From Malacoraja senta (taxonomy: Eukaryota): 64,000 nt of DNA. The notes under the pieces are model-generated. The model did no database searches and was not told the DNA's origin. It saw nothing but the letters and a program-made list of their open reading frames with translations. Below, one piece after another: positions 20,001-48,700 of the stretch. The stretch lies in the NCBI GenBank assembly GCA_038087875.1, contig CM075987.1, positions 21,764,001 through 21,828,000 on the forward strand, in the 5' to 3' direction. The position numbers were made by a program, and so were the translations under genes. Every line of letters begins with the position of its first letter. Within the stretch, counting starts at the first letter, position 1.

Positions 20001-23000
20001 ACCACCGAAACCTAGGTACATGACAATCTGGGATGTAAGTGTGGTACTGAAACTACTTCGTGAATGGTCACCAAGTGTGTCTTTACCTTTGGCCAAGCTC
20101 AGTATGAAAGTATTCATGCTTATGGCATGAGTGACAGCACAACGAGTGCAAACACTTGGAAAATTACAAATAGACAGTATGGAAGTAACTGAAGGCAAGG
20201 TTACATTCTATATCTATGACCTACTAAAGCAAATTAGGCCAGGTGTGACAGGATTTAAAATTATGCTAGCAGCATATCCAAATGACCCTTGTCTCTGTGT
20301 TAAGACATATTTGTTACAATACATTGAGGTCACAAAGAATTTGAGAAATACGGAAACTGGGTTGTTGATCACACACAAGAAACCACACAAGAGAGTTTCA
20401 ATACAGACTATTTCCAGATGGATAAAAGAAGTCTTAACAGCTGCTGGTATTAACACTTATGTTTTTATGTCTCACTCGACTAGGGCAGCAGAAACGTCGG
20501 CAGCCAGGGCAAAAGACGTCCCCGTCGACCATATCCTCGCAGCCGCCGGGTGGTCCAATGAGTTGATGTTTCAACATTTTTACCATCGGCCTATTGTTAA
20601 TGCGGGATTGTTTGCAGAAACTATTTTAAGTTCTGTGTAAATTCCTCTGGTTTAAAGGGGATCTGATTAATTTCATTATTGAAATGAATTACTGCATTTG
20701 TGGTACAAATGATATTATGAATGCATGATTGATTATTCTCGTTCCGAGTCAATCAATGCAGTGAGAAGCCAGGATTGATCTACGGCATGAAATCACAGAG
20801 CTTTAAAATCTTCACGTAGTCACTCACATGACTCCGAAGTAAAATAGTAAGATTAAACGAGAACTTACCAGTTTGAAGTTTGATAGTAAGATTAAACGAG
20901 AACTTACCTAAGTTTGAAGTTTGATCTTTATTTTATGAGGAGTTACGTAGGTGATTACGTGCCCACCACGACCGTACCCTCTATCATAAAGGTCAGATGG
21001 AAGTTCTTGTATTACTCGTTTTATTATGAGACTATATTACTTCGGTTGTTGTTTTTTGTGGTTTCACACCGCTGCTTTGAAGATTGACGCGCAGGCGCAC
21101 TGGCGGGGTTCTTCACGTAATCACATACGTAACTCCTCATAAAATAAAGATCAGACTTCAAACTGGTAAGTCCTCGTTTAATCTTACTATTAACATGACG
21201 TTCCATATAAAACTGTAAAGTGGGTGTTTATTCACTGAAATTTTCACTGAATAATTTGTGCTGGAGATGATCTACTTATAGGCTGGGTAAAGATCAACAT
21301 ACTCAATATATAGATGTATATATTATCTAAAAAGATCTATTGATTTATTTTGTTTTTTTAAGTGAAGGCAGTAAAATAGACTTAAATCTTCAGTTGAATG
21401 AGTTTTGTTTTTAATTTTTTAATCAAAAAGTGTGAGAGCTGAACTCCACAACACTGACCATACATTGGATCCAGTACCAAAGTATATGGAACTGATGCAT
21501 TGAAATGCTGAGAACTATGTTCTGCACTCTGTATCTTCCCCTTTGCACTATCTACTGTACTCAAGATTGAATTGTTTGAATGTATGTATGGTGCTGTATG
21601 TCTGATCTGTTTGAATAGCATGGAAAACATAGCTTTTCATTGTACTTCAATTCTCATTTACACTTTCATTGTACATGACAATAAAAAACCTAAACCTAAA
21701 ACTTGCTTCCAAGTTACCTGACCCAAACCCGACAGGTTCAAACTATTGTCACGGTTGGGATTTCTGTACTGGTAAGGGGAGGTCAAATTTTATATTTTAT
21801 ACCCAAGTTGATCTCAAATACCCATGGCATCATACTACTGGGGAGGCTAAATTAGAAAGTTTTTTAGTGTCCGACATTAAACATACACTTACTGAGTCTT
21901 ACCTGGCTTGCTGATGGTAATGGGCAGGCTGTAGTTAAATGTGCTGCGCTTTGCCTTCACTGGCATGTCCGAGGGCATATAACCTGTAAAGTAAAATACA
22001 ATGATGTCTGTACCCTCATTGACACTTAATAGTGACATTTCCATTTACTGGTTCTTTATAGGTTTTTGTAGACTCGGGAACAGATACTTTCCCTCTGTTG
22101 GTACACAAAAATGCTGGAGAAACTCAGCGGGTGCAGCAGCATCTATGGAGCGAAGGAGATAGGCAACGTTTCGGGCCGAAACCCTTCTTCAGACCCTCTG
22201 CTATCAGACTACTGAATGGTTCTCCCATAAGCTAGGGTTGCAGTACAAATCTTCCAACCCACCTCAATGCGGACAATGGACTTTGTCCTCTGTAACTGTA
22301 ACACTATAATGCTGAAATCTATATTCTGCAGTTTTCCTTTGCTCTAATGCCATCCTTTTGTATGACTGGATTGTATCAGATTTAACTCGGTAGCACGCAA
22401 AAACAAGAACTTTTCATTGTATTGGGGTACACGTGACAATAATAAACCAATACCATTCAGGAGCAGGTATGTAATGTCTTTCCTGAGCAATAATGCTGTG
22501 CAGGGAGTTGAACACAAAACATTCCCAGGAATGCTGCACCAGCAGAGGAGGATTACTGAGGGACCAGCAATACCAAGAGAGTGCCTCATCGACAGGGGGT
22601 ACAGTTTTCAAATAAGGTGTCAAATCAGGGACTTGGCTGTCCTCCCAGCTTAATAGAGAAGATCCCACAACATCACTTCAGTGACTGCATTCATCCATTC
22701 CAGGAAACATCCTGGTGAATGAGTTGTTTCACCAGGACGTTGCCTGGAAAGGATGAATGCAGTTACGAGGAGACTGGTTAGGCTGGGTTAATTCTGTTTG
22801 ATGAGACAACAACTAGGGAATTATCTGATTGAGATATACAAAATATTGAAGATACTGATGGATAAATACGGAGAAATATTTTCACTTAACAGGGATATCC
22901 ATGACGAAGGCATAAGTTAAAGGGCAAGTGATAGGAGTAGACACAAGGAACTGCAGATGCTGGTTAACAGAAAACTGCTGGAGTAGCATCTCTGGAGAAC

Positions 23001-26000
23001 ATGGATAGGTAGCGTTTTGGGTCGGGACCCTTCTACAGACTCCAAGAGATAGGAGATTTAAGGAAGAATATTTTCCATCCTAAATTGTTTGAAATCTGAC
23101 TCTATGAACATGAAAGATTTCCCAAGCAGCCTAGACCATCTTTATTCCTCAATAAACTGAAACAAAAGATCTGTCGCTTCTTATCACATTGTCATTTTGG
23201 TAGTCTGCTGCACGCAAATTGGACGCAATATTCCTTGAAGATGTTGCCATAGGTTCACTCACATCCGCAAGGCCAGATGGGAGTTCAGCTTAGCATCTAA
23301 TATAAAAGATGGCAGGTGACAGTGTAGCAGTCCCACAATACTACACTAGGAGATCAACTGAACAGAGAAGAGAAAATGTAGGTAGAAAATACAGACATTC
23401 ATTTCCTTGTATTACATGTATATTTTTTTGTTTTTAAGCACAGAGTGTAATTAGTTTCTCCTTCCATCAGTTACCATGTTTGGTGCTGCAACGAAGTCTG
23501 AAATCCAACACCTGATAAATCTTTGCCTTGGAATCTTTCCTTGGGTCATATCCGAACCTCACCCAGAGACTTCGCCAGGGACCTGTAAGCTGTGAAAAAG
23601 AGCGGACAAGCATGAGGTAATGCATTTTGGAAGATCAAATCTCTCGTGGGACATACCGAGTAAACGGCAGTGGCTTTAGGAGCATGGATGTACAGAGACT
23701 GGAGTGCAAGTTCATAAATGAAAATGGTGATATGAGTGAATAGGGTGATGAAAAAGGCATTTGGTGTGCTTGCCTTCATAGGCTGGGGACATGTTGCTGT
23801 TGTACAAAGTATTGGTCAGACAAGTACACTGTGTACAGTTCTGGTCACCATACGATAGGAGGATATGGTAGCAATAGAAAGTGTGCAGAAGAGATTCACC
23901 AGGATGTTGCCTAGAATGGTGAGTCGTAGTTATAAGAGATTGAATAGATTGGCTTTATTCACATTGTAAGGTAGGAGGTTGAGAGTAGACCTTAGAGGTT
24001 TATAAGAATGTGAAGCGCATAGACAGTCTGTTGCTTTTTTCCAGGGTAGAGAAGCTCAGATTTAGAGGACATGGGTTTAAGGTGAAAGGGGAGAAATTTA
24101 AAGGACATCTTCTTCTTCTTGCGTATGGCGTGCGCAGCCTAAAGTTGTAGGACAACTTGTTCTATTTGATCTATTTGTTTGTGCATGTCGGGTTGATTGC
24201 ATTAGTCGAATCAGGGTGGACCACATGAAGGTTGCAATCTCCCACCCCAAAGGGGTAGGCTTGTCACATAGAGGGCAGTGAATATCTGAAACATCTGCCA
24301 AGAAGTGGTGGTAGAGGCAGATATAATTACAATGTTTAAAAGGGGTGCAGGCATGTACTCGGAGAGGAAAGGCATAGAAGGACAGTGGTCTAATGCAGGC
24401 AAATGGGATTAGCATAGATGGACATCATGAACGGTCGGCATGGATGAGGTGGGCCGAAAGGGGCTGATGGTGTGCTGTATGATTCTTTGTCGAGCACCCT
24501 CTGTGACTCACCATGTAGTAGGCTACAAAAGGCAGCAGCAGCTTCAGCTTCTCTGGATGCACATTAATATTTGACTTAACTGCATTTCTGGACCAAACAG
24601 GCCGGATTGCAAAGATCTGAGGAGACAGATAACAGATCTGCACAATGAGATGCCAAGTTCTACCATTCACAAGTACAAGGCCGCATCTCACAATAATGTA
24701 CGTGTAATACTTTGTTTGTTGATGGAAATAGCACATCAACACGGCCAGCACCATCAAAAATACCGGAAACTGATACAGAGAATACTAGAAGCCCTCAGAA
24801 GGTTAAGTAACGTATGTGGAAAGGGAAACAGATTATGTTTCAGGTTTAAGACTCTTCTAATAATCTGATATATTAATTCTGTTTAATTTTCCACAGACAC
24901 AGCTTGACCTGTTGAATATTTCCGTCAGTTTCTGTTATTTATACTGTATCATTGCACTCCACAAAAAATTGAAAATTATGAGTCTTTCATGAACTCAGGA
25001 CGTCTCAAATCACTTTACAATCAACAAAGCATTTTGAAGTGTTGACAGCTTGTAATATGGGAAATTGCTGCAGCCAATTTGTCTTACAAACAACAATGTA
25101 ATAATTCCACCACTAAGAATATTTACCACCCCACCAGGAAGAATTTATCTGCTGTTTATTGAAAGGTTTTCAATATGGATCTAAATAAGCAACGTTCAAG
25201 CACTTTAATTGAAAAATGGACACCAGTACTGCTCACCCCTTTCAGTTCTTCTTCAACTTTCCGGTCTGCTGCCTGAGTGTTAAATTTGCTCCAGTTCTGA
25301 ACGGCAGCTTCAAGTGGCTGGGATGGGACCTCGGCATCGTCAAAGTTTACAAATATGGCGTTGTGGGGACGGCGTGCTCGCCCCAGACCAATCAGATTCT
25401 CGTTGGACAGTTTTGGAGGCTGATATCCTTCCCTGAGAAACAGACAAAATAATTGCCAATGAGTTTTGCTCTCAAAATCACACCCAATATATCTTCCGCT
25501 GTTCTGCCACAAATCCAAGAATGAAACCATTCGTAGGATGAGAGATCAAAAATTCAATTAGAATGGATTTGTGACCAATCATTGGGAAAAGTAACAGGAA
25601 TTTCTCAACATCAGTTTGTAATTTTAGAGTTTGTGAAATAATTGGTATCAACTAACAGAATGTGAAAGAGTTTGTATTATCATTATACTTTTTGTAACCG
25701 TGGGATATCACAAGCACCTTGCAATTAAGTAGGAATTAAGTAGGAATTGGGGGGAGGGGGTGATGAAAATAAATTGAAGGGACTCGGCTTCATTCTTAGA
25801 GCTTTGAAGTGAGATGGACATAAAATGCTGGAGTAACTCAGCGGGACAGGCAGTGTCTCTGGAGAGAAGGAATGGGTGACGTTTCGGGTTAAGACCCTTC
25901 AGACTGGTCTCAGAAGGGTGTTGACCCGAAGCTATGAAATCCTGCTGAGTTACTCCAGCATGTTGTGTCTTTCTTTGATTTAAACCAGCATCTGCAGTTC

Positions 26001-29000
26001 TTTCCTACACATTTTGAAGAGTGATAGTTGTCTTTGATTGAAAGATATATACTGAGAGGTCTTGTCAGGGTGGATGTGAAGGGGAAGCTGTTTATTGTGA
26101 GAGAATCTAGAATCAAAAGTCTGTGTTTACCAGTAAGAGGTTGCCTCTTTGGACAAAGAAGGAAAGATTTCTTTATCTCAGAGGGCCTTGACTCTTTGGG
26201 CCCTCTGACTAAAGAAAATTCTCCTCATCTCCTTCCTAAAAGAACGTCCTTTAATTCGAAGGCCATGACCTCTAGTCCCAGACTCTCCCACGAGTGGAAA
26301 CATCCTCTCCACATCCACTCTATCCAAGCCTTTCACTAATCTGCAAATTTCAATAAGGTCCCCCCATGAAGAGAATGTTTAGTGAGATTACAGACAGATC
26401 AGCTGTAAAGCAGGTAGAGAACCCAAGGGGCCTGTTCTGCTCCTAATTCATAAAGGGTAGTCATAACTAATGCACTCGGAAGTTCAAGAAAAATCTTTCC
26501 TATAGAATGGTGAGAAAGTAAAACCTGCTAGTGCATGGATTTGAAGCGAAGGTAAGGAAGAATAAATGATGAATAGGAGACTGTAGAGCTAAGGTTGGTT
26601 AAAAGGAGATGAAAGCATTAAAACTGACAGACCCATTGAATCAGAAGCCACATTTCTGTTCAATGCTGCCAATACTCAACTGTACTGACCTGTGCTGGAC
26701 CTCTGGTCGATAGAAGTAATCCACAGGGTTATCCACACGGGAAAATATTGGAGGAGGGATATACAGCGGCAGCTCCTGATCAAAGAACTCCTTGTGTTCA
26801 GGCTTGCGGAGAATAACTTTGTCGTACATGGACATTTGTGAGCCTGCTGATGCATTGTGCAAGGCAAGAAACTGGAAATCAGACATACCTGTAAGACACA
26901 ATCAGGAGACTCACCAGACAATGAACCTGTAACAGCACAGCACAAGAACAGGTCCTTCAGCCCACAATAGTTGTACCGAACATGCCAAATCCAACTCTTA
27001 TCTGCCTTCACATATTCCATATCCATCCATTCCCTGCATATCCACATGCTTATCCAAGTCTCTTAAATGCCACTATTGTATCTGCCTCCACCACCTCCCC
27101 CGGCAGCGCATTCCAAGCACTCACCACCTTCTGTAAAAGAAAACACGTGCACATCTCCTATAATTGTTGCCCCTCTCGTTGTATATTTTGACACTCTTTC
27201 TCAGACTGCGACCTTGGCAATCTTGGTTTTATCTGCAAACTTACTAACCAACTTGTCTATGCTGACGTCAAGTCATTTATATATATCACAAGGAGCACAG
27301 GTCCTTGCCAAACTTCACTGGTCACCATCCTCCAGCCTGAATATTGTCCTTCCACCACATCACAATAGTCAGAGAGCGAGAGAGAAAACAAGAGCAAGAG
27401 AAAAAATCTAATTTGTCTTCAATTGATAGAGCCAGAATCAGCTGATAGAAAACAAATCCATTCCTTTTTAGACAATAGGTGCAGGAGTAGGCCATTCGGC
27501 CCTTCGAGCCAGCACTGCCATTCAATGTGATCATGGCTGATCATCCCCAATCAGTACCCCATTCCTGCCTTCTCCCCATATCCACTGACTCTGCTATTTT
27601 TAAGAGCCCTATCTAGCTCTCTCTTGAAAGCATCGTTTTAGGTCTATAGTTGGCACAGAACAGAACCAGCTCATATATAATAATTTCAAAGTAAAAATGA
27701 GGAGTTATACTGAAGATTTTGTAAATTATCAGTTAGGGCATATTGATTTCAGACCAGGATCTGAAAAGGTATCACAGGTTTAGTCACAAGAAATGTAGTG
27801 ATCACTGTTCTGGCAACAGAGAAGGATGAGAAGATAGTTTAAAGAATTGTTCAAAATCCTGATATTTGTTGGGAAGAGGAGACAAGAAAATGGCAGGAGG
27901 GTCAGTAACCAGAGAACACTGGAAAAAAATGGCAACAGAACTAGTGGAGATGAAGAGAATGTTTCCATCCAGTAAGCTATAAATGCATTGACTGACAGAA
28001 GCAGATTCAACAGTAATTTTCACTGGGAATTGGATAAATATTTTAAAAGGAAAACATCGATAGGACCAGTGGCAAGAGTAAAATTAACTGGATAACTCCC
28101 CCCCCCCCCCCCCACCCCCCCACCCCAAAGACTGACGCAGACATAATGGACCCAATGGCCGTTTATTTTATAAAGTATAAGAATATCTAACAACTGCCCA
28201 TGAAATATAAATCTTAAGAGGAGACAAAGATTTTTTTAATTTAATCCAAGAGAGGAGCACATTAAAATATTAAGGAAATGACCCAAGATGAAAGCAATGG
28301 GGAAATATGCCATTCAGGTAAAAAAAGACAAACAATTATCACCTGCTAACATTGTATAGAATGAAATAAAGTATACATTTCTGTAGTGCCTTTCACAATC
28401 TCAGGACATCCTAACGTTATTACAACTAATTATGATTTTTTGTGGCTACGCTTGCAGGGTAGCATATATTAGAGAACATTTGCACAAGCACCCACAATGT
28501 GATAATCGTTGGCTAACGAGTCTTTTAAAAAAATATCTTGGCTGAGACACAAAAAATGGCCAAGTCAATAAGCTTTTTTTTTTCAAGATTGTGTCACAGA
28601 ACTGTCCACATCCAAGTACCATGAAGGCTTTTCCCTCTCTTTTGCTCCACTGGCAAACATCCCTTGGTCAGCAAAGAACTTGATGGATCATAACACATTT
28701 CCTCCTCTTCTCCAACTCCAAAACAAAACTCCTGCACATTACTGGCTGAATTGAATTGAATATGGCATGAATTGAATTCATTTTCCCATTTCTTCTGAAG
28801 ACAAACAGCTGAATTATACACAATCCAACGATATGTTACCCTGAAATTTGTAAGTGGTCCCGATAACACCAAGAATTTCCATTTCATATTTAATCTCTTC
28901 TTCACATTCTCCTTCCTTTTGAGGTGCCTCTGCTCTGATTTTCTTCTTTTTCCTCTTGACCCGGAGTAGCATGCTGGTTGAGGGGAACCGGTTACCACAC

Positions 29001-32000
29001 ACAGGGTGGCAGTAAGGATCCTTTGGACGGAAGTGCAGTTCAAGTCTCCTGCTCGGATCAGCGTAAATCTATTCCAAAATAAACAGATTTTAAAGAATTA
29101 TTATCATAAACACCAGTTGGCCCTCAGTCAACCAGTTGGCCCTTCAGTAGATCGATTATTTGAAAAATCAGAGGACAAGGTTTAGTGTAGCAGATGCTTT
29201 GCTCAATGTCAATTTGCTCAAACTTAAGCAAATATGTATACACTCCTGTGTTCTGTGGGATGATTTAGGGCTCCTTTGAGATGGCAGATGGGCCAGCAAT
29301 TTAAAAAAAACCCATCTGGAATTCAATTTCCAATGTGCAACTCTCCCAGTACTGTCAGACTAGATCTTTGCACTCAAATCAATGGATGCGATTTGAATGG
29401 CAAACATAACTCTAAGAGGAGAGCCCCACCAGCAAGCCAAATAACCTTGTCACTAATTTCAGCACAGCAAGTGAAGGCAACCTTGTTTCACCTGTAAAAC
29501 ACAAAATACTAGTGCAACAGCGGGTAAAACATAATCTATGGAGGACGTAGACAGGTGATGTTTTCGGTCGGGATACTTCTTCAGATTTCCAGTCTGAGAG
29601 TGGAGCAGAACGTCTTCACAGTAGGCATACTTTTAGAAGATTTAGAAGTGGAACAGTAAAATTGAAACACAAGGAACTACAGATGCTGGAATCTTATGTA
29701 GAACACAAAGTGATGGAATAACTCAGCGGGTCAGGCAGCACCTCTGGAGATTATGGAAAGCATTTTATTTTCTACAGATGCAATGTAGAAAGCATTTTCT
29801 CTTCTATAGATGCGCCACAGAAGGCATTTTATCAGGATGTAGCACAGCATGGTTCGGGATCAGCTCCATCCACGACCGCAAGAAAGTGCAGAGCATTGTG
29901 GACTCCAACTGCACTTCACGCTGCCTCGGCAAGGCCACCAGCATATTCAAGGACCAATCTCACTCCGATCACTCCCTCTTCTCCCCTCTCCCATCAGGCA
30001 AGAGTACAGGTTTGAAAACACATACAGTGGCTTGCAAAAGTTTTCATACCCCTTGAACTTTTCCACATTTTGTCACGTTACAACCACAAACGTAAATGTA
30101 TTTTATTGGGATTTTATGTGATAGACCAACACAAAGTGGTGCATAATTGTGAAGTGGAAGGAAAATGATACATGGTTTTCAAATTTATTTACAAATAAAA
30201 AACTGAAAAGTGTCGCGTGCAAAAGTATTCAGCCCCCCTGAGTCAATACTTTGTAGAACCACCTTTCGCTGCAATTACAGCTGCAAGTCTTTTGGGGTAT
30301 GTCTCTACCAGCTTTGCACATCTAGAGACTGAAATTGTTGCCCATTCTTCTTTGCAAAATAGCTCAAGCTCAGTCAGATTGGATGGAGAGCGTCTGTGAA
30401 CAGCAATTTTCAAGTCTTGCCAGAGATTCTCAATTGGATTTAGGTCTGGACTTTGACTGGGCCATTCTAACACATGAATATGCTTTGATCTAAACCATTC
30501 CATTGTAGCTCTGGCTGTATGTTTAGGGTCGTTGTCCTGCTGGAAGGTGAACCTCCGCCCCAGTCTCAAGTCTTTTGCAGACTCTAACAGGTTTTCTTCC
30601 AAGATTGCCCTGTATTTGGCTCCATCCATCTTCCCATCAACTCTGACCAGCTTCCCTGTCCCTGCTGAAGAAAAGCATCCCCACAGCATGATGCTGCCAC
30701 CACCATGTTTCCGCCACACATAGCGTTTTGCATTTAGGCCAAAAAATTCAATTTTGGTCTCATCTGACCAGAGCACCTTCCTCCACATGTTTGCTGTGTC
30801 CCCCACATGGCTTGTGGCAAACTGCAAACGGGACTTCTTATGGCTTTTTTTCAACAATGGCTTTCTTCTTGCCACTCTTCCATAAAGGCCCGATTTGTGG
30901 AGTGCACGACTAATAGTTGTCCTGTGGACAGATTCTCCCACCTGAGCTGTGGATCTCTGCAGCTCCTCCAGAGTTACCATGGGCCTCTTGGCTGCTTCTC
31001 TGATCAATGTTCTCCTTGCCCGGCCTGTCAGTTTAGGTGGACGGCCATGTCTTGGTAGGTTGGTAGTTGTGCCATACTCTTTCCATTTTTGGATGATGGA
31101 TTGAACAGTGCTCTGTGAGATGTTCAAAGCTTGGGATATTTGTTTATAACCTAACCCTGCTTTAAACTTCTCCACAACTTTATCCCTGACCTGTCTGGTG
31201 TGTTCCACGGGCTTCATGATGCTGTTTGTTCACTAATGTTCTCTAACAAACCTCTGAGGCCTTCACAGAACAGCTGAATTTATACTGAGATTAGATTACA
31301 CACAAGTGGACTCTATTTACTAATTAGGTGACTTCTGAAGGCAATTGGTTGCACTGGATTTTATTTAGGGGTATCAGAGTAAAGGGGGCTGAATACTTTT
31401 GCACGCGACACTTTTCAGTTTTTTATTTGTAAAAAAATTTGAATACCATGTATCATTTTCCTTCCACTTCACAATTATGCGCCACTTTGTGTTGGTCTAT
31501 GACATAAAATCCCAATAAAATACATTTACGTTTGTGGTTGTAACGTGACAAAATGTGGAAAACGTTCAAGGGGTATGAATACTTTTGCAAGCCGCTGTAC
31601 CTCCAGATTCAGGGACAGTTTATTCCCAGCTGTTATCAGGCAGCTCCTCACACCAGCTAGAGTACAGTCTTGACAGTCTCCTCACACCAGTCTGATGAAG
31701 GGTTTCGGCCCGAAACGTTACCTATTTCCTTCGCTCCATAGATGCTGCTGCACCCGCTGAGTTTCTCCAGCATTTTTGTGTACCTTCGATTTTCCAGCAT
31801 CTGCAGTTCCTTCTTTAACACTACAGTCTTGACCTCCCATCTACCTCATTGGAGACCTTTGAACTACCTTTAATTGGACTTTATCTTGCACTAAATGTTG
31901 TCGCCGTTATCCTTTATTTGTACACAGTGGACGGCTTGATTGTTACCATGTATATACTTTTCTTTGACTGGATAACGTGCAACAACAAAAAAGCTTCACT

Positions 32001-32467: not shown

Positions 32468-32522
32468 GGCAGCATCTGGTCCCACACCTAACTACGTCCG
32501 GCGTCACGATGTTGGTTCCGCT
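32155..32522. promoter_or_regulatory. CpG-rich island over GTF3C5 first exon and promoter
   Basis: Sharp local rise in GC and CpG content relative to the AT-rich flanks. Confidence 0.65.
32249..32467 (-). CDS. GTF3C5: GTF3C5 exon 1
   Basis: MAAVIETME...RLVCAEYPGVVRDPLKMLETLGGEEGVSR; gccATGg Kozak context, GTGAGT donor. Confidence 0.92.
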
Positions 32523-33084
32523 TAACATTAAGTTATATTCAAGTACTATAATTATTAAACTATGCACACAGCAATGTGATGACAACCAATTTCCCCCTCC
32601 CAGTAATAGCGAGTGAAGGATACATATGGTCAGGAGTTTGGCTCATCTTCTCTATTTTTCTTTTAAGATTACATGATTTTTCAACGCCCATCCCTGGGAG
32701 GGGCACTGACACCTGTTTAAATGTGTAGGAAGGAACTGCAGATACTGGTTTACACCCAAGATAGACACAACATGCTGGAGTAACTCACCGGGACAGGCAG
32801 CATCTCTGGAGTCAGAACAGGGGTCTCGACCCGAAATGTCACCCATACCTTTTCTTCAGAGATGCTGCCAGCCCCGCTGAGCATTTTATGTCTATCCTAT
32901 TTATTTTTTTAAAGGCTCTTCTGTCACAACAGTACTGGGAGTTGTGTTCAATTCTTGTCCACCACCTTTCTTTCCAAGATCTAGATGTTAGCGACCTTGC
33001 TTTCAAAGGAAGTGTTTCTTACGTTTACTTGTTCATACTCTTGTGAATAACAGCAGGGATATTTAAATGTACTCACAACATGAA

Positions 33085-45700: not shown

Positions 45701-48700
45701 TACACATTCTCTCCAATGGCTGCATATGGTTTACTCCAAGTGCTCTGGTTTCCAACCACGTACCACAGATGTATTGGTATGTTAGATATTTACAGCAATG
45801 GGGTGGGAGATTGCAACCTTCACGGGGTCCACCCTTTTTCCATTAATGCAATCAACCCGACGTGCACAAACAAAAAAATCAAATAGAACAAGTTGACCTC
45901 CAACTTTAGGCTGTGCACACCATACGCAAGAACATTTACAGCATTTACCCCCTAGGGAATAATCAAAGTGGAGTTGGTGGGCATGAGTGAGAGAATAAGT
46001 TTCAGAGGTACTGGAAAATAACCAGAGAAGGAGTGGGACCAATGGAACTGCTCCCTCAGAGCCAACATGGACCCAATAGGCTGAATGGCCTCCTTCCATG
46101 TAAACATTTAAGAGGTTTGAAAATACCTTTCAGGTTGACTGTGCAAACAATCAAATGGAGGAGAAAAGTATAAAAAAGGAAAAGCAAAAGTTATAACTTA
46201 ACTTTCTTGCATATTTAATGCATAAAGGAGACGTTTTTGAAACACGAGCTATGTAGCTAGATAGTTTTAAAACCTCACCATGGCTAAATTTTGTTCCTCC
46301 AGTGCAGTTGCCTTGAGAATTTTGCGCAGCAAACGACGATTCCGAACAGCATGTTGTTCTCGCTTGTAACGTTCATAAAGTAATTGGTTGTGCAGTAGAA
46401 GGAGTTGATTCCTCAGAGTGTGCAGCTCATCCATGGGAGCAGAACCTGAGATCAAAAGAATTACTTTATTAAAAAAAATAAAAGCTACAACTGGCTTTGA
46501 AAGGACTGTTGCCAAGCTACATCAATGACTATTGCATCTGGCTTTATGCGTCACCCACCCCCTAAACAAGAACCAATTGCTGCTGTAAACAATTTGCACT
46601 CACACAGCATCCTTTGCATGGTTAAAAAGAGATTGTCGGTGCGATGGAATGTAGAATAAAAATGTTAAATATCGAGTCATAAATTTACAACAGGTGAGAC
46701 AGCTGAAGGAACATTTGCCATTGGTGAAGTAACTAAAATAGGGATTTCACGTGACCAAAATTGAATGAGTTGATTAGAAAGAGTGTGTAGCTCATTTGTG
46801 GTGGCAGAACCCAGGATCAATAGTACAGATGTTTGACGAAAAGCAGGAGGTATGTAGAATGAACCAAGGAGAAATTGGAACACAGGGCCAATTTTTTTTT
46901 TTTAAAGTTGCCAAAAACAGGAACCAAGGGGCAAGCAAGCAAAATGAATGACAGTGGTCAACAGAACTGGATGAAAGTTAGAATACAGACCCGTGGTGGT
47001 GGTGGGAGGGCCGGGGGGGCGGGGGGGAGTGGTGAAGAGAGACGAAGGAGGGACCAACAACATTTTAGGGTACTTTGTAACTTTGTCTGCACCTTGTGGA
47101 GACTCTTTTGTGTACTGTCTATGCAAAAACAAAAACAAAAATCACTGTACCTTCACGATACACGTGACAATAAAGTATCTGTCTAGATTGCAGAATTTTA
47201 TAGAAATTCAGGTTCAGCGCAAGATCAGAGGCAAGGAATAGTTCAATTGGGAAGCAACAAAAACACTGGCAATGTATGCAGGGGTAAACCTAAAAAAAGA
47301 GAAATCTGCAAAGAAAAACACATCCAAGGCTACCTATTTATTGTAAAGCAATTAAAAAGTAGCATGTATCAAGAAACGATGAGCATAATGTTGTACATTT
47401 ATGTCCAATTGTAATGTATCTGATTGACAGAACCACTTGCATTAAACTACAGCTCATACCCAATGCTGCATCATTTGTAGGTTTGTTTCTCAGCTTCACT
47501 CACGGTAATTGGAGAGGTATCATTAATATGTAGCACATACCTCCAAAGTGAGTCCAGTCTGCAGATTTGCTGGGCAGAGGCAATCTAAAATTGATACACG
47601 AAAGCAACAGTAAGAAATTGATATCAAACAATACTAGTTAATCATTTTACCAATTAACTGTTATCAATTTGTGCAAAGTTGTTACAATGACAGTGAAATA
47701 ATATCAATTATGAACTGCATGTTTCCACTTGAACAGTGAAATAAGGCAAATTAATCCATTTTGCCAAGTTTCAGAATCTCATGCCCTTTTTCTTCATATA
47801 TCCATCTTACCATCTTAGTGGAGCTTCTCCTCAGAAATTAGATCATCATTGTAAATATGATTGCACCCAAATCAGAAGGTCCTCAGTGGCTGAATATTTC
47901 ATTCACATCGCATTAGAGCGCACAAGAAGAATGATTTGAGTTATATTAATAGGTTGCTTCAGTGTAGAACCAAATCTCATCAAGAGTCAGTAGATCAACA
48001 GGAAAAGGGAAAGGGAATACATACAACGTTGTACAAATGATTACCTGTGATTAATTGGATAGTGAAAGCAGGAGCCAGTTGGGCTTGGATTACATTGGCC
48101 ATGCAGAGGAATGCAGTTCAAACCCCTTGGTAGCCAACGTCTTGGCCAAGGGCAAAACTCTCAGCTAACATTTCACTACAATACTGAAGGCTGGCGTGTT
48201 TATGAAGTCAAAAAGGAGGCCTGATAATCCACACAGCAAATTTACACTAATATCTCCAACAACCCTAAACAAAATGCCACATCTTATTTCCTGACGTTTC
48301 TTTCTGTGGATAAATTATTGGGAAACTTGGTTGCAAAGAGAACAATTCTAAAATAATTCACTAGATTGATTTCACCATCAAAAAAGGGGCAATTCAGCTT
48401 TTCATAAAAAAAAGAAATACATCAGCAAAGACTTCTACACATGTAGACAGCTGAAGCAAAGAATTTAGATACATTTAATAAGTGCTATCTCGAAATAAAA
48501 ATGCAAGTCAAATTAAAAACAAAGATTAGACATAAAATGCTGAAGTAAATCAGCAGGACAGGCAGCATCTCTGGAGAAAAGGAGATGCTTTATGATCTCC
48601 ATAGATCACGGAGATAACTCCAGAGATGCTGTCTGTCACGCTGAGTTACTCCAGTATTTTGTGTCTATCTTTGGTTTAAACCAGCATCTGCAGTTCCTTC

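What the first reader, a model, noticed from the sequence alone, without database searches (positions are those of the whole stretch)
24195..24248. Intact minimal HDV/CPEB3-like ribozyme in the sense strand of GTF3C5 intron 5
Seen: the minus strand reads GGGGUGG-GA-GAUUGCA-ACC-UUCAUGU-GGU-CCACCCU-GAUUCGA-CUAA-UGCAAUC (54 nt). This gives a 7-bp P1 opening with a G1.U wobble, a 7-bp P2, a 3-bp P3 and a 7-nt L3 with U at position 1 and G at position 6. An L3 C can pair with the G after P1 (one-bp P1.1), P4 is reduced to a stub, and a C-U-A-A J4/2 carries the candidate catalytic C. Established: this is the nested double-pseudoknot of HDV-family ribozymes, and L3 differs by one base from the mammalian CPEB3 ribozyme loop (UUCACGU). 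Inference: the motif is on the GTF3C5 transcribed strand ~260 nt after the exon 5 donor, so the pre-mRNA could self-cleave co-transcriptionally, as with the intronic CPEB3 ribozyme.
Basis: partly seen in the sequence, partly recalled or inferred. Interest (0 to 1): 0.85.

Follow-up and report, generated by a model that had tools for sequence, protein, structure and literature searches.

The report
Self-cutting RNA heading a jumping element
The hepatitis-delta-type self-cutting RNA fold is real, but it is the first 54 bases of a short jumping element present in thousands of copies, so it belongs to that element and is not a device of the GTF3C5 gene.

Summary
The 54-nt motif is present exactly as described, on the minus strand at 24248-24195. 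It has all the sequence hallmarks of an HDV-like ribozyme except a P4 hairpin.

It is not a gene-specific element. It is the 5' end of a ~140-nt non-autonomous non-LTR retrotransposon (24248-24107):
- At least 4,580 genomic matches lie within 3 mismatches of the ribozyme.
- Copies have an (AAG)n tail and target-site duplications.
- Copies start exactly at G1, the base 3' of the predicted cleavage site.

The element's first ~80-105 nt are the 5'UTR of a LINE family that encodes an endonuclease and a reverse transcriptase. Its last ~48 nt are that LINE's final codons, stop codon, short 3'UTR and tail.

Best reading: the ribozyme cuts the element out of host read-through transcripts, as in R2/SIDE, RTE, Baggins and L1Tc/NARTc.

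The window copy does sit in sense orientation in a 922-nt intron of the Tau95/GTF3C5 homolog, 263 nt after the donor. That placement is incidental. The copy differs from the family consensus at two ribozyme positions.

Catalysis is untested: no raw RNA reads were available, there is no covariation, and Rfam scores are below threshold. This is a new member of a known kind, notable for its minimal size, a core that follows CPEB3 numbering and its high copy number.

The parts
24195..24248 (-). HDV-like (delta-like) ribozyme, 54 nt. The predicted cleavage site is 5' of G24248. Parts: P1 24248-24242 / 24219-24213; J1/2 24241-24240; P2 24239-24233 / 24201-24195; P3 24232-24230 / 24222-24220; L3 24229-24223; P1.1 C24227-G24212; linker in place of P4 24211-24206; J4/2 24205-24202, with candidate catalytic C at 24205.
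   Evidence: A sub-threshold but full-length, in-register match to RF02682 (14.3 bits; 17.5 bits for a consensus copy).
24107..24248 (-). One complete copy of the ~140-nt non-autonomous (SINE/SIDE-like) retrotransposon.
   Evidence: In one search, 40 of 40 scored genomic matches begin at query position 98-105 (window 24253-24246) and end at query 239-251, most at 239-246 (window 24112-24105). Searches show the flanks and target-site duplications.
24169..24248 (-). 5' module (element positions 1-80): the ribozyme plus ~26 nt, shared with the 5'UTR of the partner LINE.
24108..24155 (-). 3' module (element positions 94-141): the last codons, TAG stop, ~18-nt 3'UTR and (AAG)n tail of the partner LINE. 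The tail lies at about 24120-24108.
   Evidence: (92% identity over 48 nt to L078).
24249..24253 (-). Possible short target-site duplication (CCTTT), repeated at 24104-24100. It is weak for this copy.
   Evidence: Other copies have clear 6-13-nt duplications.
24510..24511 (-). GT donor of the host intron. The upstream Tau95/GTF3C5 exon ends at 24512.
   Evidence: a contig of run X5 ends at 24512 with 0 differences.
23590..23591 (-). AG acceptor of the same 922-nt intron. The next exon carries Tau95 profile positions 100-144.
45800..45932 (+). Second, older copy of the same element (90% identity) with target-site duplication ATTTACAGCA. Its P3 is broken.

Best explanation
The motif is the 5'-terminal HDV-like self-cleaving ribozyme of a non-LTR retrotransposon family.

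The family has two forms:
- A LINE made of a ~106-nt 5'UTR that starts with the ribozyme, one ORF with an AP-type endonuclease, a reverse transcriptase and a C-terminal Cys/His motif, then an ~18-nt 3'UTR and an (AAG)n tail. One near-full-length copy spans about 3 kb.
- A much more abundant ~140-nt derivative that keeps only the LINE's 5' end (80-105 nt) and 3' end (~45 nt).

Proposed mechanism. The short element has no recognisable promoter of its own. It is transcribed as part of host RNAs, for example when it lies in sense orientation in an intron, as here. The ribozyme then cleaves just 5' of G1 and so defines the element's RNA 5' end. The LINE's reverse transcriptase recognises the shared 3' end and copies the RNA into a new site by target-primed reverse transcription. 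New copies therefore begin at G1 and carry target-site duplications.

Shown: the fold, the copy number, the target-site duplications, the G1 starts, and the 5' and 3' ends shared with the LINE.

Inferred: catalytic activity, co-transcription with host genes, and mobilisation by that particular LINE.

The window copy is one such insertion in an intron of the Tau95/GTF3C5 homolog. If it is still active it would cut that pre-mRNA, but nothing suggests the host selected it for that.
For: (1) Fold. All helices and core bases are present. A consensus copy aligns end to end with the Rfam model RF02682, matching its P1, P3, L3 'ACGU' and 'CUAA'. Positions 20-23, 25-26, 37-38 and the 4-nt J4/2 match the bases named for CPEB3 in PMC4836649 (passages).

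(2) Repeat.
- 3,150 first-look candidates; 40 of 40 scored at 94-100% identity.
- 2,282 + 2,298 matches within 3 mismatches of the 54-mer, against 0 + 0 for the reversed control; the first 100 listed are exact.
- 30 of 30 fetched loci are ~125-142-nt elements with target-site duplications.

(3) 5' ends. Of 65 distinct full-length copies in hand, 53 have an exact duplication of 6 nt or more, and in 46 it abuts G1 with no offset. In a set chosen by the middle of the element, and so unbiased for the ribozyme, 7 of 10 unique copies start at position 1 give or take one.

(4) LINE 3' end. LINE copies end in the same 48 nt, including the ORF stop codon. RVT_1 matches at E = 2e-30.

(5) LINE 5' end. 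In L091, L087 and L096 the module is followed, about 40-50 nt later, by an ATG-led ORF. That ORF matches the Exo_endo_phos N-terminus of a related intact LINE. L103 and L104 carry the LINE-type 5'UTR with a complete ribozyme that passes the descriptor from G1.

(6) Intermediates. L080 is a 1.6-kb chimera of the exact module joined to the RT-coding part and the tail. The 'type C' short elements retain the LINE start codon region.

(7) No Pol III head.
- ARAGORN finds no tRNA.
- Rfam finds no tRNA, 5S or 7SL likeness at E up to 10.
- The best A-box and B-box matches have 3 mismatches each, which is chance level (the motifs are recalled).
- Type C carries a T5 run on the sense strand.

(8) Conservation in other data. 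In contigs of four other coded runs the element is very abundant, and loose ends pile up at 24248/24249 and 24108-24111. At a share of 10% or more, the only ribozyme variants that are not peculiar to the window copy are U45G (the free position of J4/2) and A32G (U5-A to U5.G, which still pairs). The 88-nt body has about 7 such sites plus 2 indels.

(9) Precedent. [quoted passage not shown]
Against: - No cleavage assay and no RNA 5'-end data. Only assembled contigs could be laid, and they cannot show RNA ends.
- Rfam scores are far below gathering (17.5 against 44 bits), and no hit at all to the HDV or CPEB3 models was listed.
- No covariation. In 32 distinct full-length ribozymes, 0 pairs change on both sides, and the shuffles do as well as the data.
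- The loose descriptor matches about 0.8 times per shuffled window.
- Among 18 unique copies with the LINE-type 5'UTR, only 5 start at positions 1-3. Six start at positions 8-10, just after the P1 5' strand. Simple cleavage at G1 followed by full-length copying does not predict this.
- No intact full-length LINE of this family was found. The longest open frame among family members at 75% identity or more was 681 aa, so present-day activity is unproven.
Confidence: 0.8

Rival explanations
1. Promoter-defined 5' end. The element is a SINE (and LINE) transcribed from an internal promoter that starts at or near its first base. The HDV-like fold is then either inactive or secondary. A dual promoter-plus-ribozyme arrangement, as reported for the first 77 nt of L1Tc/NARTc, is the mild form of this rival.
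For: - A precise 5' end is also what an internal promoter gives.
- 6 of 18 LINE-type copies start at positions 8-10 and not at G1, which could mark a start site.
- There is no covariation and no Rfam hit above threshold.
- The abstract of PMC3383444 (search listing) states that the same 77 nt act as promoter and ribozyme in L1Tc.
Against: - A chance fold with 7 + 7 + 3 bp, G1.U, U20/G25, C22-G37 and C-N-A-A starting exactly at base 1 is improbable. Hits with P2 of 7 bp or more arise about 0.09 times per 128,000 scanned positions.
- There is no tRNA, 5S or 7SL likeness, and A/B-box matches are at chance level.
- The type C subfamily has a T5 run on the sense strand, a Pol III stop signal by recalled knowledge.
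- Short copies overwhelmingly start at G1.
Confidence: 0.12
2. One reading: a host-selected, CPEB3-like intronic ribozyme that regulates GTF3C5 pre-mRNA.
For: Sense orientation, 263 nt after the donor of a 922-nt intron. The core follows CPEB3 numbering.
Against: - It is one of at least 4,580 near-identical copies flanked by the marks of insertion.
- It has drifted from the family consensus at two ribozyme positions, one of them a CpG decay.
- No conservation specific to this locus was shown. Contigs of related organisms overlap the element's 3' edge by only 22-25 nt, under the tool's 31-nt rule for bridging.
Confidence: 0.03
3. Dead relic. The fold descends from a once-active ribozyme, but neither the window copy nor the present family cleaves any longer.
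For: - The LINE copies are old (about 87-93% alike) and broken.
- The window copy carries C24U and U38A, and its nested minimum-free-energy fold changes.
- 17 of 65 full-length copies in hand no longer pass the descriptor.
Against: - At least 100 exact copies of the 54-mer and 94-98% identity among short copies point to recent amplification from sources with an intact motif.
- U38A would turn the U21.U38 contact into a Watson-Crick pair.
Confidence: 0.05

Closest known systems
R2 SIDEs (short internally deleted elements) of Drosophila (PMC3414825, abstract read)
   Same: A non-autonomous element made of a LINE's 5' HDV-like ribozyme joined to the LINE's 3' end. It is propagated by the LINE's target-primed reverse transcription, and the ribozyme defines the 5' end after co-transcription.
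   Different: R2 and its SIDEs insert site-specifically in 28S rDNA and are rare. The element here is dispersed, with varied target-site duplications, in thousands of copies. Its partner has an AP-type endonuclease, and its ribozyme is 54 nt with no P4 and a 2-nt J1/2.
L1Tc / NARTc / SIDER Pr77 HDV-like ribozymes of trypanosomatids (PMC3185411 and PMC3383444 from search listings; PMC4035085 abstract)
   Same: A LINE and its short non-autonomous partner share a 5' module that is an HDV-like ribozyme. Copies are dispersed and abundant, and host mRNA effects have been discussed.
   Different: The host is a protist with polycistronic transcription, and Pr77 is also a promoter. The sequences are unrelated. 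The element here sits in a 1.94-Gb animal-type genome with spliced genes.
HDV-like ribozymes of RTE and Baggins LINEs (Ruminski et al. 2011, seen only as cited in PMC6765202; the paper itself is not held)
   Same: Elements without their own promoter are released from intron or read-through transcripts by a 5' HDV-like ribozyme. The partner LINE here resembles RTE in having a very short 3'UTR and a simple-repeat tail (this resemblance is recalled, not tested).
   Different: The clade of the LINE here was not determined; the PDB and Atlas searches were uninformative. It has a C-terminal Cys/His motif.
Mammalian CPEB3 ribozyme (PMC4836649, passages)
   Same: Intronic and on the sense strand. P1 is 7 bp. 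U20, U21, C22, A23, G25, U26, G37 and U38 sit at the same numbered positions. P1.1 is one C-G pair plus a U.U. J4/2 is 4 nt of the form C-N-A-A.
   Different: CPEB3 is a single conserved locus with a P4 hairpin, and its P3 is G-C rich. The element here is a multi-copy repeat with a 6-nt linker in place of P4. The Rfam CPEB3 model gave no listed hit. Position 24 of CPEB3 was not named in the passages I saw.
Minimal (P4-less) HDV-like ribozymes from metagenomes, and theta ribozymes of gut phages (bioRxiv 10.1101/2023.06.13.544163, passages; Riccitelli et al. 2014 only as cited there)
   Same: About 50-nt double-pseudoknot ribozymes without a P4 domain.
   Different: Those came from metagenomes or phages, and that preprint says their origin and function were unsettled. 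The example here is in a eukaryotic chromosome with a clear retrotransposon context. Silkmoth R2 ribozymes also lack P4 but have J1/2 loops of hundreds of nt (PMC3774820, passages).

Membership tests
HDV-like (delta-like) self-cleaving ribozymes | Nested double pseudoknot in the order P1-J1/2-P2-P3-L3-P3'-P1'-(P1.1)-P4-J4/2-P2', with P1 of about 7 bp and P3 of 3 bp directly abutting P1'. | tested here: met
   The consensus copy also passes. The features are as described in PMC3774820 and PMC4836649.
HDV-like (delta-like) self-cleaving ribozymes | G at +1, forming a G.U wobble at the base of P1 next to the scissile bond. | tested here: met
   G1.U36 in 27 of 32 distinct full-length copies and in the window copy.
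HDV-like (delta-like) self-cleaving ribozymes | Catalytic C at the start of J4/2, followed by constrained A residues. | tested here: met
   C44 U45 A46 A47. C44 is kept in at least 90% of sequences and A46/A47 are invariant in 42 distinct sequences.
HDV-like (delta-like) self-cleaving ribozymes | L3 carries U20 and G25 (the metal-binding reverse wobble) and a C that forms P1.1 with the G after P1'. | tested here: met
   U20 is invariant; G25, C22 and G37 are each kept in at least 90%. The roles of these bases are taken from PMC4836649.
HDV-like (delta-like) self-cleaving ribozymes | P4 hairpin. | tested here: not met
   Only a 6-nt linker (38-43). P4 is dispensable in the family: minimal ribozymes lack it, as do silkmoth R2 ribozymes.
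HDV-like (delta-like) self-cleaving ribozymes | A score above the gathering threshold of an Rfam HDV-type model. | tested here: not met
   The best score is RF02682 at 17.5 bits against a gathering score of 44. Nothing is listed for the other HDV-type models. Covariance models cannot score the pseudoknot.
HDV-like (delta-like) self-cleaving ribozymes | Helices supported by compensatory changes. | tested here: inconclusive
   0 of 18 pairs change on both sides in 32 distinct sequences. The copies are 94-98% alike, so the test has no power.
HDV-like (delta-like) self-cleaving ribozymes | Site-specific, divalent-ion-dependent, C-dependent self-cleavage. | not testable with these tools
   No raw RNA reads were on offer. 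This needs a bench assay.
Ribozyme-terminated non-LTR retrotransposons and their internally deleted non-autonomous derivatives (R2/SIDE, L1Tc/NARTc type) | The ribozyme sits at the very 5' end of the element, with unrelated upstream flanks. | tested here: met
   (46 of 65 copies with a duplication abutting G1).
Ribozyme-terminated non-LTR retrotransposons and their internally deleted non-autonomous derivatives (R2/SIDE, L1Tc/NARTc type) | The short element shares its 3' end with an RT-encoding LINE. | tested here: met
Ribozyme-terminated non-LTR retrotransposons and their internally deleted non-autonomous derivatives (R2/SIDE, L1Tc/NARTc type) | The same ribozyme heads the LINE's own 5'UTR, upstream of the endonuclease/RT ORF. 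| tested here: met
   L091, L087 and L096; L103 and L104 have a complete ribozyme. Caveat: many LINE-type copies start at positions 8-10.
Ribozyme-terminated non-LTR retrotransposons and their internally deleted non-autonomous derivatives (R2/SIDE, L1Tc/NARTc type) | Transcription by read-through from host genes, with no promoter of its own. | not testable with these tools
   Only negative hints: no Pol III-type head.
CPEB3 ribozyme (Rfam RF00622) | A single conserved locus in a CPEB3 intron, matching the Rfam model. | tested here: not met
   A multi-copy repeat in a Tau95/GTF3C5 intron, with no listed RF00622 hit at E up to 10.
Classical Pol III SINE (tRNA-, 7SL- or 5S-derived head) | A head homologous to a Pol III gene, with A and B boxes. 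| tested here: not met
   One search gives best matches of 3 mismatches out of 9 specified positions each, about what chance gives (the box consensus sequences are recalled).

The most novel reading that the evidence does not exclude
This family could be a living example of the kind of vertebrate retrotransposon ribozyme from which the mammalian CPEB3 ribozyme was taken. It has the same numbered core (U20 U21 C22 A23 . G25 U26, G37 U38, and a 4-nt C-N-A-A J4/2) and the same P1, P3 and L3 lengths, differing mainly by the missing P4.

If the short copies are active, the genome would also hold thousands of minimal self-cleaving sites. Many would lie in sense orientation in introns, and they could trim host pre-mRNAs genome-wide.

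A further open possibility concerns the second cluster of 5' ends at positions 8-10. It may mark either a built-in start site (a combined promoter and ribozyme, as in L1Tc) or an RNA 5' end protected from degradation by the pseudoknot.
Probability: 0.12. Interest if true: 0.8.

Novelty: new member of a known kind. Interest (0 to 1): 0.55.

Why it matters

What this case adds:
- A very small natural example (54 nt, no P4) with a clear eukaryotic host and a clear job. A 2023 preprint still described the origin and function of minimal HDV-like ribozymes as unsettled.
- A high-copy short element, found in several related organisms' data, whose catalytic core follows CPEB3 numbering. This gives a concrete candidate for testing where the CPEB3 ribozyme came from.
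- A natural set of thousands of intronic insertions in which the cost of self-cleavage to host genes could be measured.

For the scan itself, the lesson is that this apparently gene-specific ribozyme is a repeat.

Tried and rejected
- RNA evidence. The look-up of sequencing runs listed no holder on record as RNA. Read laying could lay only assembled contigs of four coded runs, and its table of places where molecules begin or end was empty. Cleavage in vivo could therefore not be examined.
- Covariation. There is none, and the test has no power.
- Rfam. At the 5-kb scale it found nothing at the site. At narrow scale it gave only a sub-threshold RF02682 match.
- Partner search, dead ends:
  - The most abundant intact LINE (L073, ORFs of 341 and 1271 aa) has no likeness to the element.
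  - A pattern asking for a longer continuation of the type C middle gave 1 + 1 hits against 1 + 0 for the control, which is chance.
  - Two related intact LINE families (L082, L083; 41-48% RT identity) have no descriptor hit in the ~1.2 kb upstream of their ORFs.
  - The first six walking steps reached only 5'-truncated copies.
- LINE clade. Pfam gives only Exo_endo_phos, RVT_1 and a weak zf-RVT. The PDB sequence search (L1 ORF2p 70 bits, R2 54 bits, RT region only) and the protein atlas do not resolve it.
- Literature. Webb et al. 2009 and Ruminski et al. 2011 are not held, so their lists of ribozyme-bearing elements could not be checked. A search pairing 'HDV-like ribozyme' with shark, skate and cartilaginous-fish terms listed 15 papers, none holding the ribozyme term. 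A search on non-autonomous, vertebrate and HDV-like terms gave 9 papers, none of which, by title and abstract, describes such an element. These searches do not prove it is unpublished, and Repbase and Dfam could not be consulted.
- Earlier findings of this scan. There were none for this genome or sequence. The three word hits concern other genomes and did not bear on this case.
- Taxon. I did not establish the organism. From recall only, some flanking repeats resemble cartilaginous-fish repeats; this is unverified and is not used.
Full report
OBSERVATION

Numbering from G24248 = 1:
- P1 is 1-7 paired with 30-36, seven pairs opening with G1.U36.
- J1/2 is G8 A9.
- P2 is 10-16 paired with 48-54, seven Watson-Crick pairs.
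- P3 is 17-19 paired with 27-29.
- L3 is U20 U21 C22 A23 U24 G25 U26.
- G37 can pair with C22 (P1.1).
- Positions 38-43 are a short linker where P4 would be.
- J4/2 is C44 U45 A46 A47.

A descriptor I wrote for this topology finds the site, plus one weak AU-rich hit at 32560-32470. The descriptor is loose. In 80 dinucleotide-preserving shuffles of the window it matched 65 times (0.81 per window), 7 times with P2 of 7 bp or more. The fold alone is therefore not beyond chance for a scan of many windows.

Rfam gives only a sub-threshold match to RF02682. It scores 14.3 bits for the window copy and 17.5 bits for a consensus copy, against a gathering score of 44. The alignment does span the whole model in register: P1, P3 'ACC/GGU', L3 '..ACGU' and 'CUAA'. 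No HDV or CPEB3 model was listed.

WHAT IT IS

A search of the window's own 1.94-Gb assembly with 251 nt around the site gave 3,150 first-look candidates. All 40 scored matches were 94-100% identical. All began within a few bases of window 24248 and most ended near 24108.

The 54-mer of the family consensus has 2,282 forward and 2,298 reverse matches within 3 mismatches, against 0 and 0 for the reversed control. The first 100 listed are exact.

In the fetched loci the repeat is a 125-142-nt unit. It begins GGGGTGGG and ends in (AAG)n, and it is flanked by target-site duplications with unrelated flanks.
- Of 65 distinct full-length copies in hand, 53 have an exact duplication of 6 nt or more.
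- In 46 of them the upstream copy abuts G1 with no offset.
- That sample is biased toward intact ribozymes. In the 12 loci found through the middle of the element (10 unique), 7 start at position 1 give or take one, and 3 are 5'-truncated.

The window itself holds a second, older copy at 45800-45932, with duplication ATTTACAGCA.

The copied RNA thus begins at the base immediately 3' of the predicted HDV-type cleavage site. A descriptor hit with P2 of 7 bp or more arises about 0.09 times per 128,000 scanned positions. Its coincidence with base 1 of a repeat is therefore not plausibly chance.

THE PARTNER LINE

A pattern that asked for the element's 3' end preceded by something other than the short-element body gave 120 hits. 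A few of them had a different upstream sequence. Fetching these showed protein-coding sequence running into the shared end. The ORF ends '...DLQL*', and its TAG lies inside the short element's 3' module. About 18 nt of 3'UTR and the (AAG)n tail follow.

Longer copies carry RVT_1 (E = 2e-30) and share 48 nt (92%) with the short element's 3' end. A Cys/His motif and a weak zf-RVT match lie C-terminal of the RT.

Walking upstream through the few copies that reach further (33, then 14, then 26 first-look candidates) reached the LINE's 5' end. In L091, L087 and L096 the ribozyme module is followed, about 40-50 nt later, by an ATG-led ORF. Its first ~155 residues match the Exo_endo_phos-bearing N-terminus of a related intact LINE.

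L103 and L104 carry this LINE-type 5'UTR with a complete ribozyme that passes the descriptor from G1.

Intermediates exist:
- L080 is a 1.6-kb unit. The exact module is fused at a GATC microhomology to the start of the RT domain, and the unit runs to the tail.
- The 'type C' short elements keep the LINE's start-codon region joined to its last ~45 nt.

The short element is therefore an internally deleted derivative of the LINE, as R2 SIDEs and NARTc are of their LINEs (PMC3414825, abstract; PMC4035085, abstract).

No intact full-length copy of this LINE family was found. The longest open frame among family members was 681 aa, and copies are about 87-93% alike. The LINE is thus older or rarer than its short derivative. 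Its clade was not resolved.

HOW IT MOST LIKELY WORKS

Shown:
- the fold and its core bases;
- thousands of copies with target-site duplications and a simple-repeat tail;
- 5' ends at G1;
- a 5'UTR and a 3' end shared with a LINE that encodes an endonuclease and a reverse transcriptase.

Inferred:
- The element lacks its own promoter. No tRNA, 5S or 7SL likeness was found. A/B-box matches are at chance level (motifs recalled). One subfamily has a T5 run on the sense strand.
- It is transcribed within host RNAs.
- The ribozyme cuts 5' of G1.
- The LINE enzyme copies the released RNA from its 3' module.

This is the scheme described for R2, L1Tc, Baggins and RTE elements (PMC6765202, passages; PMC7761336, passages).

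Two further points fit it:
- The nested part of the fold (P1 plus P3) is the minimum-free-energy structure of the consensus 54-mer, and P2 appears in the fold of a whole consensus element.
- In contigs of four other coded runs the element is very abundant, with loose ends at its two borders. The only ribozyme variants at a share of 10% or more that are not peculiar to the window copy are U45G (the free J4/2 position) and A32G (U5-A to U5.G). The 88-nt body shows about seven such sites and two indels.

RESULTS THAT CUT THE OTHER WAY

- There is no biochemical or RNA-end evidence. No run is on record as RNA, and only contigs could be laid.
- There is no covariation. In 32 distinct full-length ribozymes no pair changes on both sides, and shuffles match the data. 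The copies are too alike for the test to mean anything either way.
- Of 18 unique copies with the LINE-type 5'UTR, only 5 begin at positions 1-3. Two begin at 5, six at 8-10, two at 13-16 and three at 43 or beyond. Two more copies begin at 8/9.
- The cluster just after the P1 5' strand is unexplained. A reverse-transcriptase stop, 5' trimming up to the P2 helix, or a start site near position 9 (a combined promoter and ribozyme, as reported for L1Tc; PMC3383444, listing) are all open.

THE WINDOW COPY AND THE HOST GENE

Tau95_N (28838-29071) and Tau95 (23497-23631) exon matches lie on the minus strand. The upstream exon ends at 24512 before GTGAGT, and a contig of run X5 ends there with no differences. 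The acceptor AG is at 23591-23590. The intron number was not checked.

The copy differs from the family consensus inside the ribozyme at two positions:
- C24U is a CpG decay in L3. It lets 11-16 pair with 24-29 in the nested minimum-free-energy fold.
- U38A would turn the U21.U38 contact into a Watson-Crick pair.

Whether this copy still cleaves cannot be said. If it does, it would cut the GTF3C5 pre-mRNA, but so would any sense-oriented intronic copy. Nothing indicates host selection at this locus.

COMPARISON WITH KNOWN SYSTEMS

As a ribozyme it meets every sequence and topology criterion of the HDV-like family except a P4 hairpin. P4 is known to be dispensable (silkmoth R2). It fails the Rfam thresholds, and catalysis is untested.

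Its numbering matches the CPEB3 ribozyme: U20, U21, C22, A23, G25, U26, G37, U38, a P1.1 of one C-G pair plus a U.U, and a 4-nt J4/2. It is not a member of the CPEB3 family, which is a single conserved locus with a P4 hairpin.

As a mobile element it belongs with ribozyme-terminated non-LTR retrotransposons and their internally deleted derivatives. The authors of PMC3774820 warn that the active sites of such ribozymes converge on the same few sequences. The CPEB3 likeness is therefore a lead, not evidence of descent.

VERDICT

Its main implication is wrong, because it is a retrotransposon's 5' ribozyme and not a gene-specific device.

It is a new member of a known kind. It is of moderate interest for its minimal size, its CPEB3-like core, its copy number and the unexplained second class of 5' ends.

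Noticed in passing
window 22678-22770, both strands: An ~85-nt near-perfect palindromic hairpin matches the miRNA-precursor models mir-2007 (46.6 bits, gathering 100), mir-8515 and MIR898 on both strands. It looks like a MITE-type inverted repeat and not a miRNA gene.
   Followed up: no
window 45800-45932 (+): A second, older copy of the same short retrotransposon (90% identity) with target-site duplication ATTTACAGCA. Its ribozyme has a broken P3.
   Followed up: yes
window 32470-32560 (-): A weak AU/GU-rich match to my loose HDV descriptor, with P2 of only 5 bp. It occurs at the rate expected by chance.
   Followed up: partly
L087, L091, L100, L101, L105, L110 (5' ends); L074:803-856(-); L092: Many copies with the LINE-type 5'UTR begin at element positions 8-10, just after the P1 5' strand, and not at G1 (6 of 18 unique copies). 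This is unexplained.
   Followed up: partly
L081:2768-2843, L088:668-737, L092:913-979, L076: Inverted copies of the ribozyme module lie directly against 5'-truncated LINE bodies. They resemble the 5' inversions that twin priming produces.
   Followed up: no
L080 (G000:C5:65170100-65172100), element about 102-1701: A 1.6-kb chimera. The exact ribozyme module is joined at a GATC microhomology to the start of the LINE's RT domain, and the unit runs on to the (AAG)n tail.
   Followed up: partly
L073 (G000:C9:26873300-26882000, minus strand): An intact two-ORF LINE (341 aa and 1271 aa). The same 1271-aa open frame recurs at many places, so it is probably the youngest LINE of this genome. It is unrelated to the element studied.
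   Followed up: partly
L083:3940-4240; L082: Related intact single-ORF LINE families (940 and 986 aa, Exo_endo_phos plus RVT_1). L083 also ends in (AAG)n about 220 nt after its ORF. No HDV-type motif was found upstream of either ORF.
   Followed up: partly
L033/L034, L059/L060, L065/L067, L111/L112: These pairs of loci share identical flanks around the element, so they are recent segmental duplications or assembly duplicates.
   Followed up: no
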